Positions 16,247 to 19,273 of a stretch of DNA of 64,000 bases are shown here, piece by piece. The DNA is from Nitrospirota bacterium. GTDB lineage: Bacteria > Nitrospirota > Nitrospiria > Nitrospirales > UBA8639. The DNA is taken from contig JAALKI010000001.1 in NCBI GenBank assembly GCA_011088105.1, forward strand, positions 30,353 through 94,352. The letters are read 5' to 3'. The notes beneath the pieces were generated by a model, which worked only from the letters and a program-made list of their open reading frames with translations, was not told where the DNA came from and did not search any database. Positions within the stretch are counted from its first letter, which is position 1. Every line of letters starts with the position of its first letter. The position numbers and the translations under genes are program-made.

Positions 16247-19200
16247 ATGACGTTAATAACATCTCCTCCAGCAAGCCACGAACTTTCTTCGGCAGAACGA
16301 GAGCAACTGCGTCAGAAAATTTCCGAGGCCAGTGAACCCATTGCGCCCTTTTGGCCTATGAGAACGATGGTGGCGCAGAATCCTATTCATGAGTTGGAAT
16401 ATCTGCCCTTTGACCAGGCTGTTCGTAAAGGCAAACAGCTTCTTGGTGGAAATGGCTATCTTGCGAATGAAGAGTATCGTCAATTTTATCGAGATGGCCG
16501 CATTACTCCGGAAAGTCTTAAGCGAGCCTTTCAGAGGATTGGACCTCAACAAGAGAGTCAACCCACCATCAAAGTAGGAAATCACCAAATTACAGCCCTA
16601 GATGTCTGGCACTTGCACCTGTTGGTTGGGTTTGAAGAGCTCCAAACACCTTTGCTTGAGTGGGAGTTAAGTGATGTTGGATCAACGAAGCGGTTTCATC
16701 AGCATCTCTCGGAAGAATCCCAAAAACGAATCATTGAACGCACGATTCAAGAGTGCGAACATTGCCGTGAATATCCTGAAAAGGCCTATCTCGCGAACCT
16801 GTGGAAGAGCTTCCTCGAGGTTTTAAGGTTATCTGGCTCTCATTCTTCTTCGGCACCAACACTTGAACACTCCTATTCACAAATATCTGAGCCCATTTCC
16901 TTGCCAGCACAACGGACCATCAGCGATTGGGTAGATTGCTTGGCTGGAAGTGAGTTAGTCGACCAGGTCAATAATCAACTCATTAAATGGGTAGCCGCCT
17001 TTCTTGATGAAGGCTTAGCTGAATGGGAAATGCCTCAACGAAATGAAGGCTTTTACCAAGCATGGAGAAAACTGGCGCAGCAAGACTTTTCAGGTCAGCT
17101 CCTCGGCATCAAGAACTTTGCTCAGAGAGTTCGTACCCTTCCTGAAGATCCAGAAGACGCAATCGGCTTCAGCTTACTCCAACTCGGCGTCCTCCAAGAA
17201 CAATGGGAGAATTACCTTTCTCGGCAGCTATCACTATTACCAGGCTGGACAAGATACATTCGGTGGCTTGGAGAGCATCCTGCGTACCACGCTCAACACA
17301 GGCATCCCATTGACATCACCCAATATCTTGCCGTCCGTCTCTTCTATGAAGTGGAGTTAACCCAAGTCATATGCCAGCAAGAATGGGAAGTTGACGGAAC
17401 GGTTTCTGCGTTGGGTGCTTACTGGATCGACCGTCCCGAAGAATATCACAATCGAATAAGGAATCAGGCCCATTCAGCAAATCCTACCAAACAAGCCATA
17501 TGCCGCAACGCTTGGCGATTATTCCATTTGGCCCAATTTCTTGAATTGTCTCCAACAGAAGTTCATGACCTATCACATGCTGATGCCCAGACATTGTTGC
17601 ATTGGCTAGATGATTTTCCTTCTGACCAGCATAGTCCAGTATGGCTTGAGGCGTATGAAGATACGTTTCGAGAAAAGATACTAAGAAAAATCTCAGCGCA
17701 TCGCGGAACAGTGCCTGCCCTGGATTCACGTCCCCATGCACAACTTGTATTTTGTATTGACGTACGTTCCGAATCATTTCGCCGCCATATTGAAGCCCAA
17801 GGCCCTTATGAAACATTTGGGTTTGCCGGGTTTTTTGGGATTCCTATCAGTCATCAAGCATTTGATAGCCAAGAACGATCTTTCTTATGCCCGGTGTTAC
17901 TGACTCCTAACCACGCAGTAACAGAAACACCTCGATCTGGAGAAGGAAAAGCGTTAGAGAAATATTCATCGGTTACCCGTTGGCACCAACTAGGGCATCA
18001 TCTTTTTCACGACCTGAAGCACCATCCCATTGGATCGATGATGGTCATTGATGTGTTGGGTTTCTTTTTTAGTCTAGGGTTAGTGGGCAAAACCTTGTTC
18101 CAAAAAACATTTCGTGCAATGACTGCTATTATCCAGCGTTGGTTTACGCACAGAGTTCCAACCCAGATCTCAATTTCCACCCCATCTGACCCTCACAATC
18201 CCATGATCGGAGAGGTGAATACTGAAGGGATTCCTGAAGGGCTTTCGCAGGGCTTTTCTCTGACGGAACGGGCGACCTTTATCGAAAATGGATTGCGTGC
18301 CATGGGCCTCACCAACAATTACGCCCGATTAGTCTGTCTCTGCGGCCATGGCAGCGAGACCGACAACAATCCCTATTATGGTGCGCTGGATTGTGGGGCA
18401 TGTGGAGGAGCACCAGGGGACGCGAATGCCCGAGTCTTTGCCGCTATGGCGAACGACCCTGAAGTTCGTTGGATCCTCAAAGACAAAGGATTACCAATTC
18501 CAGACGATACGTGGTTCCTTCCAGGAAAACATAACACGACGACTGATCGGGTCGAGTTTTATGATTTAGAAGAACTGCCGGAAACGCATAAAGACGATTT
18601 GCGTGTGTTAAACAAAGATCTCGAAGACGCTGGTGCAAATCAGGCTCTCGAGCGGTGTCATCGCATCCCCAGTGCGCCAACTGGGATTTCGCCAGAACAG
18701 GCCTTTGCTCATGTAGACGAGCGCAGTTGCGATTGGGCCAATCCTCGACCAGAATGGGGCTTGGCTGGTAATGGCGCATTTCTCATTGGAAGACGGAAAC
18801 TCACCAAAGGATTGGATTTAGATGGTCGTGTCTTTTTGCATTCCTATGACCCTATCGCTGATCCCGATGGTGCTATCCTTGAAAAAATTATGACGGCACC
18901 ATTAATTGTTGGCGAGTGGATTAACACCGGGTATTATTTCTCCGCGGTTGATCCGTGGGCGTATGGCAGTGGGAGTAAGGTACTGCATAATGTGGTGGGT
19001 GGTGTCGGAATGATGTTGGGAAGCCAAAGCGATTTACAAATGGGCTTTCCTCTTCAAACAGTGAATAACGGGAACATTCACTATCACGAACCCATGCGGC
19101 TTCTAGCCATCATTGAACAAGTGCCGAACGTGATCTCGTCCATCATACAAAAGCATGCGATTCTTCAACAGTTGTTGCATAACCAATGGCTCAATCTTGT

Positions 19201-19273
19201 TGCCTTGACTCCTCACACGTTCGAGTTTCATCGATATAATCCCGATGCCACCTGGGAGCTCATTTCGGTTTAG
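16247..19273 (+). CDS. dabA: DabA-like DUF2309 protein (CO2-hydrating subunit of DAB/MpsAB-type systems), orphan copy
   Basis: 1008 aa. It carries the family hallmarks [37 protein letters not shown] and [30 protein letters not shown] hexamer lies at 16211-16216. Confidence 0.85.
   Translation: [1008 protein letters not shown]

What the first reader, a model, noticed from the sequence alone, without database searches (positions are those of the whole stretch)
16247..19273. Orphan DabA paralog with an intact zinc-site motif but no adjacent DabB
DabA activity is reported to require its membrane partner DabB. This 1008-aa copy keeps the Cys-x-Asp ... His ... Cys pattern ([31 protein letters not shown]) assigned to the beta-carbonic-anhydrase-like zinc site. 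However, it stands alone on the plus strand, convergent with the complete dabB-X-dabA-PII operon.

It could share DabB with the operon copy. Alternatively, it could dock on one of the three antiporter-like subunits of the nearby Mrp-like cluster. That would be a new pairing, analogous to CupA on cyanobacterial NDH-1.
Basis: partly seen in the sequence, partly recalled or inferred. Interest (0 to 1): 0.6.

Follow-up and report, generated by a model that had tools for sequence, protein, structure and literature searches.

The report
DabA split from its Mrp-like partner
This "orphan" CO2-hydrating DabA protein normally heads a nine-gene Mrp/complex-I-like membrane gene cluster, and here a second, ordinary CO2-pump cassette has been inserted between the two, so it belongs to a widespread, so far undescribed large form of the bacterial CO2-uptake pump found in the main marine nitrite oxidisers.

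Summary
ORF 16247-19273 (+) encodes an intact 1008-aa DabA (PF10070, E 5e-267) with all zinc-site residues. It has no adjacent dabB and lies convergent to a dabB-dabC-dabA-PII operon, which is a DAB1-type cassette.

It is not an evolutionary orphan. In 57 of 60 informative related loci the ortholog sits directly upstream, on the same strand, of mrpE-F-G-MbhD/E-like-MnhB-NuoK-like-MrpD-NuoL-like-NuoM-like. These loci are titled Nitrospirales, Nitrospinota and one gammaproteobacterium.

In this window that cluster starts 9.7 kb downstream (28989-36615). The reversed DAB1 cassette plus a BicA-like SulP and a CBS gene lie in between.

- **Co-occurrence:** presence of this DabA type and of the Mrp-like cluster matches across 41 relatives (Fisher p 1.5e-9).
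- **No hidden partner:** ten genomes with only this DabA have no DabB ortholog.
- **Co-loss:** one genome that lost the cluster but keeps DAB1 retains only a deletion remnant of this DabA.
- **Selection:** dN/dS is about 0.09-0.13, split or not.
- **Likely docking subunit:** the NuoL-like 705-aa subunit alone lacks the TM12 Lys/Asp, as DabB does. DabA keeps a hydrophobic finger helix with a buried Asp602.

Physical docking is inferred, not shown. I found no description of this pairing in the searchable literature.

The parts
16247..19273 (+). dabA of the Mrp-linked type ('DabAm'), 1008 aa. Beta-carbonic-anhydrase-like catalytic subunit with C503, D505, R507, H701, C716; hydrophobic finger helix 595-613 with Asp602; W830 and RPEWGL at 834-839.
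   Evidence: PF10070 E 4.9e-267. Invariant residues. Motif comparison with the DAB1-type copy. Hydropathy peak 2.05 at 595-613. dN/dS 0.09-0.13.
15721..16173 (-). MpsC/DUF2294 gene, divergent neighbour of dabAm and the only copy in the genome.
   Evidence: PF10057 E 2.1e-31. Single copy. Divergent MpsC lies next to dabAm in 18 related loci, all titled Nitrospirales/Nitrospirota, and next to the long DabA type in G011 and G008.
19300..25744 (-). Interposed DAB1-type cassette on the opposite strand: dabB (24029-25744), dabC, 358 aa (22923-23999), dabA, 1083 aa (19665-22916), PII (19300-19683).
   Evidence: Pfam. The same four-gene cassette lies elsewhere in the genome in relatives G010, G020, G023, G015 and G006. 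It lies directly upstream of dabAm in three Nitrospinota loci. The DabC identity rests on the DAB1 paper and scan note e1-3023805.
25995..28478 (-). BicA-like SulP transporter (25995-27716) and CBS-pair protein (28065-28478). They are also interposed between dabAm and mrpE in this genome only.
   Evidence: PF00916+STAS and CBS. Best NCBIfam model is BicA, but below its cut-off (387.7 vs 880). Both genes are absent from the gap in the other three split genomes.
28814..28925 (+). Conserved structured leader with a long terminator-like hairpin upstream of mrpE.
   Evidence: Conserved in split loci (window, L063, L098) and unsplit loci (L058, L061, L064, L068, L075). Fold -47.9 kcal/mol, z -2.2. 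No Rfam match.
28989..31393 (+). Small subunits of the Mrp-like module: MrpE (28989-29483), MrpF (29480-29746), MrpG (29748-30047), MbhD/E-like (30026-30574), MnhB-like (30571-31023), NuoK/MrpC-like (31016-31393).
   Evidence: Pfam PF01899, PF04066, PF03334, PF13244+PF20501, PF04039, PF00420. The same order follows dabAm in 46 loci that carry the full gene set.
31390..32856 (+). MrpD/NuoN-like antiporter-like subunit, 488 aa. All four channel residues are kept (TM5 Glu, TM7 Lys, TM8 Lys, TM12 Lys).
   Evidence: PF00361. Alignment with the genome's NuoM and NuoN.
32853..34970 (+). NuoL/NdhF-type subunit, 705 aa ('L705'), the proposed docking partner of DabAm. It keeps TM5 Glu, TM7 Lys, TM8 His, the TM11 His/His/Lys, the long lateral helix and the C-terminal anchor. 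TM12 'FSKDE' is replaced by 'FSGPYE'.
   Evidence: TIGR01974 score 483 against cut-off 407.5. Best PDB match NdhF 6hum_F, matched over residues 10-608. TM12 motif F[ST]G[SPA]Y[EQ] in 49 of 50 orthologs. A DabA plus L705-type two-gene pair in G030. Groups with DabB against the genome's two NuoL paralogs, support 83/81.
35110..36615 (+). NuoM-like subunit, 501 aa, last gene of the module. All four channel residues are kept (TM12 Glu). ClpB follows.
   Evidence: PF00361 + PF01059. Alignment. ClpB at 37556-40159.

Best explanation
The lone DabA ('DabAm') is the catalytic, beta-carbonic-anhydrase-like cap of a multi-subunit, redox-free Mrp/complex-I-like membrane module. That module is encoded 9.7 kb downstream and comprises MrpE, F, G, an MbhD/E-like subunit, MnhB, a NuoK-like subunit, an MrpD-like 488-aa subunit, a NuoL-like 705-aa subunit and a NuoM-like 501-aa subunit.

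The usual arrangement is dabAm directly followed by this module. In this genome a reversed DAB1 cassette (dabB-dabC-dabA-PII) plus a BicA-like SulP and a CBS gene lie between the two.

Proposed mechanism, by analogy with the DAB1 and DAB2 structures:
1. DabAm sits on the cytoplasmic face of the NuoL-like subunit.
2. Its hydrophobic finger helices (about residues 594-633) insert where that subunit's TM12 lacks the usual Lys/Asp. Asp602 supplies the missing charge.
3. Inward cation flow (H+ or Na+) through the arm gates the buried zinc site, so that CO2 is hydrated one way to HCO3- in the cytoplasm.

Shown here: gene identity, conserved synteny, matching presence and absence, purifying selection, and the residue patterns. 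Inferred: the physical complex, the docking subunit, the ion used, and the direction of the reaction.
For: (1) Synteny. Among 60 informative loci, 57 have mrpE as the next gene downstream on the same strand. In the 48 of these scored for spacing the median gap is 133 nt. 46 loci carry all nine module genes. Fifteen relatives taken from whole genomes gave the same picture.

(2) Matching presence and absence in 41 related genomes. All 23 genomes with the MrpE ortholog have a DabA of this or the related long type next to it, or split from it by the cassette. The genomes with only DAB1 have no MrpE. Fisher p = 1.5e-9, not corrected for shared ancestry.

(3) No hidden DabB. Ten genomes that carry DabAm as their only DabA have no DabB ortholog.

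(4) Natural knock-out. G002 (99% complete) lacks the module, keeps an intact DAB1 nearby, and retains only DabAm residues 4-489 plus 967-1006, so the catalytic core is deleted.

(5) Selection. DabAm dN/dS is 0.09 between two sister genomes that both have the split arrangement, and 0.09-0.13 in unsplit pairs. The module genes in the window give 0.09-0.10.

(6) Partner features. Only the 705-aa NuoL-type subunit has lost the TM12 Lys/Asp (F[ST]G[SPA]Y[EQ] in 49 of 50 orthologs), while the 488- and 501-aa subunits keep all channel residues. In DAB2, Glu444 of the DabA finger takes the place of exactly those NuoL residues.

(7) DabAm keeps the zinc site, the Asp-Arg dyad, DW...RPEWGL, and a TM-like finger helix with a single buried acidic residue.

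(8) G030 has a two-gene pair of a DabA and an L705-type subunit with no MrpE in the genome.
Against: - No physical, expression or activity data exist.
- A conserved terminator-like hairpin and leader lie between dabAm and mrpE in several unsplit relatives. The two may therefore often be separate transcription units, and co-location could reflect co-regulation and not one complex.
- The cluster has tolerated interruption by the DAB1 cassette at least three times on the DabAm tree.
- Equating Asp602 with Glu444 of H. neapolitanus DabA2, and Tyr711 with Glu704 of T. albus DabA, rests on motif position. HMMER did not align the finger region to 9rd0_A.
- The grouping of the 705-aa subunit with DabB has only moderate support and thin sampling.
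- The structure model is mediocre (pLDDT 72).
Confidence: 0.7

Rival explanations
1. DabAm and the Mrp-like module are separate machines that are only co-located and co-regulated. DabAm would act alone, or with MpsC, as a peripheral carbonic anhydrase or CO2/HCO3- sensor. The module would be an ordinary cation/proton antiporter handling the pH or Na+ load of bicarbonate metabolism.
For: A terminator-like hairpin and conserved leader lie between dabAm and mrpE in several unsplit loci. The cluster has been split at least three times without loss of either part. The divergent MpsC neighbour is conserved in 18 loci. All Mrp subunit families are present.
Against: DabAm's most hydrophobic segment is a TM-like helix with a buried Asp. 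In DAB1 and DAB2 that motif works only when wedged into the membrane partner. Purified DAB2 does not hydrate CO2 without the membrane potential. The NuoL-like subunit specifically lacks the TM12 charge that a self-sufficient antiporter-like subunit has. DabAm and the module were lost together in G002. Presence and absence match strictly.
Confidence: 0.15
2. DabAm shares DabB and DabC with the neighbouring DAB1 copy, as an alternative catalytic subunit on the same membrane partner.
For: The DAB1 cassette lies directly beside dabAm in four Nitrospirales genomes, in three Nitrospinota loci and in G002. DabAm keeps the coupling motifs that DAB1 uses: RPEWGL and the finger helix with an acidic residue.
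Against: Ten genomes carry DabAm without any DabB ortholog. In G002 DabAm decayed although DabB and DabC are intact. The DAB1-type pair has Glu in 'YESALDC' and His-x-x-Arg after TM11 of DabB. DabAm has Tyr-Gly at that position (at least 90% conserved), and the 705-aa family lacks the His/Arg. DabAm also lacks the cytosolic arm.
Confidence: 0.08
3. DabAm is a redundant relic that was cut off from its cluster by the insertion and is on its way to becoming a pseudogene.
For: A remnant of exactly this kind exists in G002. Within one genus, genomes carry either DAB1 or DabAm plus the module, which suggests overlapping roles.
Against: The frame is intact and all catalytic residues are invariant. 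dN/dS is 0.09-0.10 for pairs of split genomes, the same as for unsplit pairs. The nine module genes in the window are intact, and the three tested (mrpE, the 488-aa and the 705-aa genes) are under similar constraint.
Confidence: 0.03

Closest known systems
DAB2 (DabA2-DabB2) of Halothiobacillus neapolitanus; structures 9rd0/9rd8/9rd9; Nat Commun 2026 (PMC13144422)
   Same: DabAm is a full-length PF10070 protein and 9rd0_A is its only PDB sequence relative (E 2.6e-114; 1.2e-157 with a profile). It has the same zinc ligands and Asp-Arg dyad and a membrane-inserting finger helix with an acidic residue. The proposed partner is NuoL-like and lacks the TM12 Lys/Asp, as DabB2 does.
   Different: The partner is not a roughly 550-aa DabB. 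It is a 705-aa NuoL/NdhF-type subunit with the full lateral helix and the TM5 Glu retained, and it is accompanied by eight further Mrp/complex-I-type membrane genes. The finger carries Asp where DAB2 has Glu.
DAB1 (DabA-DabB-DabC) of Thermocrinis albus and H. neapolitanus; PNAS 2026 (PMC13684180)
   Same: Same catalytic family. The DW(xxx)RPEWGL motif is conserved (W830, 834-839). A true DAB1-type cassette lies next door in the window (19300-25744).
   Different: DabAm is only 38-42% identical to the window's DAB1-type DabA. It lacks the ~85-aa flexible cytosolic arm. It has Tyr-Gly where the DAB1 type has the Glu-Ser that I infer to be the DabB contact. It has no DabC of its own.
MpsABC of Staphylococcus aureus
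   Same: A DabA homolog (MpsB) is associated with an MpsC/DUF2294 gene. Here MpsC is the divergent neighbour. A sodium-linked role has been argued for MpsAB.
   Different: MpsA is a single DabB-like protein, whereas here the candidate partner is a nine-gene module. The MpsC neighbour is absent from the Nitrospinota loci.
Cyanobacterial NDH-1MS/MS' (CupA/CupB on NdhD3/F3 or NdhD4/F4)
   Same: The functional idea is the same: a CO2-hydrating cap on a complex-I-type arm of several antiporter-like subunits. The best PDB match of the 705-aa subunit is cyanobacterial NdhF (6hum_F, E 2.5e-86).
   Different: DabA and CupA are classed in different protein families (from my own knowledge; no comparison was run here). 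No quinone or ferredoxin module genes (NuoB/C/D/H/I-like) are in the cluster, so the arm would be driven by an ion gradient and not by redox energy.
Mrp antiporters and the membrane arm of Mbh/Mbx/Mbs (MbhA-H)
   Same: The MrpE, F, G, MbhD/E, MnhB, MrpC/NuoK and MrpD families are present in the Mbh-type order E-F-G-D/E-B-C-D.
   Different: There is no MrpA with a fused MrpB-like domain. Separate NuoL-type and NuoM-type subunits are present instead. There are no hydrogenase or other peripheral redox subunits. DabA stands at the head of the cluster in relatives.

Membership tests
DabA (PF10070, catalytic subunit of DAB/DAC/Mps complexes) | Full-length match to the family profile | tested here: met
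   888.7 bits, E 4.9e-267, profile positions 1-747 of 747. 9rd0_A is the only PDB relative.
DabA (PF10070) | Cys2-His zinc site plus Asp-Arg dyad (H. neapolitanus C351, H524, C539, D353, R355) | tested here: met
   C503, D505, R507, H701 and C716 are invariant in 36 sequences and aligned to the same motifs of 9rd0_A.
DabA (PF10070) | Membrane-inserting finger/elbow helices with a conserved acidic residue (Glu444 in DabA2) | tested here: inconclusive
   A TM-like helix at 595-613 (hydropathy 2.05) carries a single acidic residue, Asp602, which is at least 90% conserved. The DAB1-type copy has Glu there. HMMER did not align this region to 9rd0_A, so the equivalence is by position only.
DabA (PF10070) | DW(xxx)RPEWGL coupling motif | tested here: met
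   D829, W830 and R834-P-E-W-G-L839 are invariant. The motif is described in the DAB1 paper.
DAB2-type two-subunit complex (DabA + DabB) | A roughly 520-570-aa DabB gene adjacent to, or dedicated to, this DabA | tested here: not met
   None is adjacent. The genome has a single DabB, inside the other operon. Ten genomes with this DabA type lack any DabB ortholog.
DAB1-type three-subunit complex (DabA + DabB + DabC) | dabC in the same operon, and a DabA with the cytosolic arm and the Glu that contacts DabB His/Arg | tested here: not met
   dabC belongs to the convergent operon. DabAm lacks about 85 aa of the arm and has Tyr711-Gly712 in place of Glu-Ser. Mapping to T. albus numbering is by motif only.
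MpsABC | MpsB (DabA) with MpsA (DabB-like) and MpsC (PF10057) | tested here: inconclusive
   MpsC is present as the divergent neighbour. No MpsA/DabB-like gene is adjacent.
Mrp-type cation/proton antiporter | The seven subunit families MrpA-G, with MrpA carrying the fused MrpB-like domain | tested here: not met
   The E, F, G, B-like, C and D families are present. The large subunit is NuoL-type (TIGR01974 score 483 against cut-off 407.5) and falls far below every MrpA model cut-off.
NDH-1MS-like CO2-hydrating complex I variant | CupA/CupB cap and a redox (NdhH/I/J/K, NdhA) module | tested here: not met
   No such genes lie in or beside the cluster. The resemblance is functional only.
DabA-headed Mrp/complex-I-like cluster (unnamed; seen repeatedly in this scan) | dabA directly followed, on the same strand, by mrpE-F-G-MbhD/E-MnhB-NuoK-MrpD-NuoL-NuoM | tested here: not met
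   All ten genes are present and intact in the window, but they are separated by 9.7 kb of opposite-strand genes. Orthology to the contiguous clusters is shown by 65-83% identity and by the tree. The window is therefore a rearranged member.

The most novel reading that the evidence does not exclude
This would be a third architectural class of DAB inorganic-carbon pump. DabA would cap a redox-free, complex-I-like arm with three antiporter-like subunits plus MrpEFG/B/C. It would dock on a NuoL-type subunit whose TM12 charge it supplies. The class would be the main CO2-uptake device of the dominant marine nitrite oxidisers (Nitrospina and marine Nitrospirales), exchanged between these two phyla, and possibly sodium-coupled or with a higher ion-to-CO2 ratio than DabAB. 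This window would then show one cell carrying both a DAB1 and the large form in a single inorganic-carbon island.
Probability: 0.6. Interest if true: 0.85.

Novelty: new variant of a known kind. Interest (0 to 1): 0.72.

Why it matters
DAB complexes were described as always pairing DabA with a single DabB (PNAS 2026), and their first structures appeared only in 2026. A DabA that partners with a nine-gene Mrp/complex-I-like arm would change how these pumps can be energised, through more ion channels and possibly Na+.

It would also give a redox-free counterpart to cyanobacterial NDH-1MS. Its hosts, Nitrospina and marine Nitrospirales, carry out nitrite oxidation in the ocean. From my own knowledge, they are considered important contributors to dark-ocean carbon fixation and use the reductive TCA cycle.

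This window adds natural experiments. The cluster is split by a second pump cassette, yet both halves stay under purifying selection. A relative that lost the arm also lost this DabA despite keeping DabB and DabC.

The hypothesis can be tested directly with the established carbonic-anhydrase-free E. coli rescue assay.

Tried and rejected
- **Sigma-70 promoter and terminator scan of 15000-30000:** fewer sites than in shuffled sequence, so uninformative.
- **Repeat search for insertion scars around the interposed cassette:** only chance-size repeats, plus the 62-nt inverted match between the two dabA paralogs. No integrase or IS remnants were seen among the ORFs.
- **Rfam scan of the leader upstream of mrpE:** no match.
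- **AlphaFold2 model of DabAm from a 36-sequence alignment:** pLDDT 72, pTM 0.65, with low confidence in the active-site loops.
- **Foldseek of that model against the PDB library:** no significant hit (best E 0.2). The DAB2 entries do not appear among the hits, so the library (entries released up to 8 April 2026) may not hold them, and the fold comparison failed.
- **NCBIfam:** no model matches either DabA copy or MpsC.
- **Anchoring Glu444 of DabA2 by HMMER alignment:** the finger region was not aligned.
- **Literature searches:** DabA with Mrp and antiporter; DUF2309; Nitrospina with DabA; DAB with Mrp, vectorial carbonic anhydrase and complex I; DAC; and Nitrospira with DabB, DabAB, MpsAB and PF10070. 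No description of a DabA-Mrp pairing was found. The library lacks most subscription journals.
- **Rejected idea:** that the split arose by a simple inversion of a Nitrospina-like order (DAB1 cassette, dabAm, mrp). No single inversion reproduces the window's order.

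
Full report
**Observation**

The ORF at 16247-19273 (+) is intact and encodes 1008 aa. It matches the DabA family PF10070 over the whole profile (E 4.9e-267). C503, D505, R507, H701 and C716 are invariant in a 36-sequence alignment. They align with the motifs of H. neapolitanus DabA2 (9rd0_A) that the DAB2 structure paper identifies as the zinc site and Asp-Arg dyad.

The gene has no PF00361 neighbour. Upstream lies a divergent MpsC/DUF2294 gene. Downstream, 26 nt away and convergent, lies the PII gene that ends a dabB, 358-aa gene, dabA, PII operon. 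The two DabA copies share 38% identity.

The genome is a 97.6%-complete assembly. Record titles of near relatives place it in marine Nitrospirales. It has only these two dabA genes, one MpsC and four NuoL-like genes: DabB, a complex-I NuoL, a 705-aa gene in the window, and one in a second complex-I-like cluster.

The 358-aa protein fits DabC, the third subunit that defines DAB1 operons (scan note e1-3023805). The operon copy is therefore the DAB1-type. I call the lone copy DabAm.

**What the surroundings show**

From 28989 to 36615 (+) lie nine genes:
- MrpE, MrpF and MrpG
- an MbhD/E-like protein
- an MnhB-like protein
- a NuoK/MrpC-like protein
- an MrpD/NuoN-like 488-aa subunit
- a NuoL-type 705-aa subunit
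- a NuoM-like 501-aa subunit

Everything between DabAm and mrpE is on the opposite strand (19300-28478). It comprises the DAB1 cassette, a SulP transporter whose best NCBIfam model is BicA (below cut-off), and a CBS-pair gene.

**Relatives**

I fetched the neighbourhood of DabAm orthologs from 15 related genomes and 70 loci from the species-representative genome collection.
- Of 60 informative loci, 57 have mrpE as the next gene downstream on the same strand. In the 48 of these scored for spacing the median gap is 133 nt. 46 loci carry all nine module genes.
- The loci are titled Nitrospirales/Nitrospirota and Nitrospinaceae/Nitrospinota (65-83% identity across the two phyla). One is titled Ca. 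Rariloculaceae, a gammaproteobacterium (50% identity).
- Only the window and three other Nitrospirales genomes (G003, G014, G017) have the reversed DAB1 cassette between dabAm and mrpE.
- In three Nitrospinota loci the same cassette lies directly upstream of dabAm on the same strand.
- In five other relatives the cassette lies elsewhere in the genome.

On the DabAm tree the split state needs at least three changes. The Nitrospinota sequences form one clade nested among Nitrospirales. Synonymous divergence of the DAB1-type dabA between the window and G017 is half that of dabAm (0.58 vs 1.19). This is consistent with the cassette moving more recently than the host lineages diverged.

**Co-occurrence and natural experiments**

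- Among 41 related genomes, the MrpE ortholog is present in 23. All 23 have a DabA of this type, or of a related 1260-aa type, next to it or split from it. The genomes with DAB1 only have no MrpE. Fisher p is 1.5e-9, not corrected for shared ancestry.
- Ten genomes in which DabAm is the only DabA contain no DabB ortholog. The best hits are <=44% identical NuoL-type proteins with open reading frames of 632-762 aa (G033, a contig fragment: 554 aa).
- Genome G002 (99% complete) has lost the module and keeps an intact DAB1. It retains only DabAm residues 4-489 fused to 967-1006, so the catalytic core is gone. DabB and DabC therefore did not keep DabAm under selection there.
- Where the module is present, DabAm is constrained whether split or not. 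dN/dS is 0.09 between the sister split genomes G014 and G003, 0.10 between the window and G017, and 0.09-0.13 in unsplit pairs. The window's module genes give 0.09-0.10.

**Which subunit**

The 705-aa protein passes NCBI's NuoL subfamily cut-off (483 against 407.5). It matches cyanobacterial NdhF over residues 10-608, including the lateral helix. It keeps the TM5 Glu, TM7 Lys, TM8 His and the TM11 His/His/Lys.

The NuoL TM12 motif 'FSKDE' is replaced by F[ST]G[SPA]Y[EQ] in 49 of 50 orthologs. The 488- and 501-aa subunits keep all four channel residues.

The DAB2 structure paper reports that DabB lacks exactly these TM12 residues (NuoL K399/D400), and that Glu444 of the DabA finger motif takes their place and is essential. 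DabAm's most hydrophobic segment (595-613, hydropathy 2.05) carries one acidic residue, Asp602, which is at least 90% conserved. The DAB1-type copy has Glu at that position.

Two further observations point the same way. A relative (G030) has a two-gene pair of a DabA and an L705-type subunit with the same TM12 motif, and no MrpE in its genome. In a small tree the L705 family groups with DabB against the genome's two NuoL paralogs, with moderate support of 83/81. I therefore propose the 705-aa subunit as the DabB-equivalent. This is inference.

**Differences from DabB-partnered DabAs**

- DabAm lacks about 85 aa of the flexible cytosolic arm.
- It has Tyr711-Gly712 where the DAB1-type has Glu-Ser in 'YESALDC'.
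- The DAB1 paper describes Glu704 and Asp708 of DabA bonding His328 and Arg331 of DabB. The window's DabB family has a conserved His-x-x-Arg after TM11, and the L705 family does not.
- The mapping to T. albus numbers is by motif only, because I could not obtain that sequence.

**A caveat on 'operon'**

Upstream of mrpE (about 28814-28925) lies a hairpin-rich leader that ends in a long terminator-like stem and a U-run. It is conserved in both split and unsplit relatives, where it sits between dabAm and mrpE. It matches no Rfam family.

So dabAm and the module may often be separate or attenuated transcription units. This helps explain why interruption is tolerated. It also leaves room for the rival reading that the two are only co-regulated.

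**Known or new**

Both 2026 structure papers and the 2018 discovery preprint treat DabA as partnered with a single DabB, with or without DabC. A 2024 review of inorganic-carbon toolkits never mentions Mrp, and its DAC passages describe no such partner. Six full-text searches found no DabA-Mrp pairing. The searchable library is incomplete.

Other agents in this scan reported the contiguous form of this cluster in other genomes. I reached the synteny result before reading those notes. I treat them as agreement, not as independent evidence. I verified three phyla by record title.

**What could not be done**

- Fold comparison with DAB2: the entries did not appear among the hits, so the fold library may not hold them.

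**Verdict**

The lone DabA is a rearranged member of an undescribed, widespread DabA plus Mrp/complex-I-like system. It most likely docks on the NuoL-type subunit. My confidence in this reading is about 0.7.

Noticed in passing
L058-L127 (loci); tree: DabAm and its module are 65-83% identical between genomes titled Nitrospirales and genomes titled Nitrospinaceae/Nitrospinota. The Nitrospinota sequences form one well-supported clade nested inside the Nitrospirales diversity. This points to transfer of the whole cluster between the two marine nitrite-oxidiser phyla.
   Followed up: partly
window 28814-28925 (+): A conserved structured leader with a long terminator-like hairpin and a U-run lies upstream of mrpE. 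It is shared by split and unsplit relatives in a Nitrospirales subgroup, matches no Rfam family, and folds with z -2.2. It may be an attenuator or ligand-sensing element controlling the module separately from dabAm.
   Followed up: partly
L133 (G002:C1:196000-215900), 15772-17330: A deletion remnant of DabAm (residues 4-489 joined to 967-1006) lies beside an intact DAB1 cassette in a 99%-complete genome that has no Mrp-like module.
   Followed up: yes
L137 (G030:C22), 7540-13046: A two-gene pair: a 1093-aa DabA followed 12 nt later by a 737-aa L705-type NuoL-like subunit with the FSGPYE TM12 motif. No MrpE was found in that genome. It may be a minimal or intermediate form between DabAB and the full module.
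   Followed up: partly
L135 (G011:C7) and L136 (G008:C165): A longer DabA type (1259-1266 aa, with a cytosolic arm) also heads the same nine-gene module. Here a PII gene ends the cluster and MpsC is the divergent neighbour.
   Followed up: partly
L138 (G038:C238), 7976-12313: A 1445-aa DabA-like protein has a large insertion in the N-terminal half, CIDER in place of CIDVR, and HPEWGH in place of RPEWGL. It is paired divergently with MpsC, and no membrane partner is in view.
   Followed up: no
window 34300-34900 (C-terminal part of the 705-aa subunit): The lateral-helix region contains tandem 'WLWRxxDIxxIDR'-like repeats. Their number varies between orthologs (extra copies in L062, L135 and L136).
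   Followed up: no
genome contig C11:28912-35627 (outside the window): A second complex-I-like cluster has one NuoL-like and three further antiporter-like subunits, two of them NuoM-like. From my own knowledge it resembles the '2M' complex I variant reported for Nitrospira.
   Followed up: no
window 25995-27716 (-) and genome contig C17:2705-4333: The 545-aa SulP that usually lies just upstream of MpsC and dabAm in relatives is on another contig in this genome. A different, BicA-like SulP lies inside the interposed block.
   Followed up: partly
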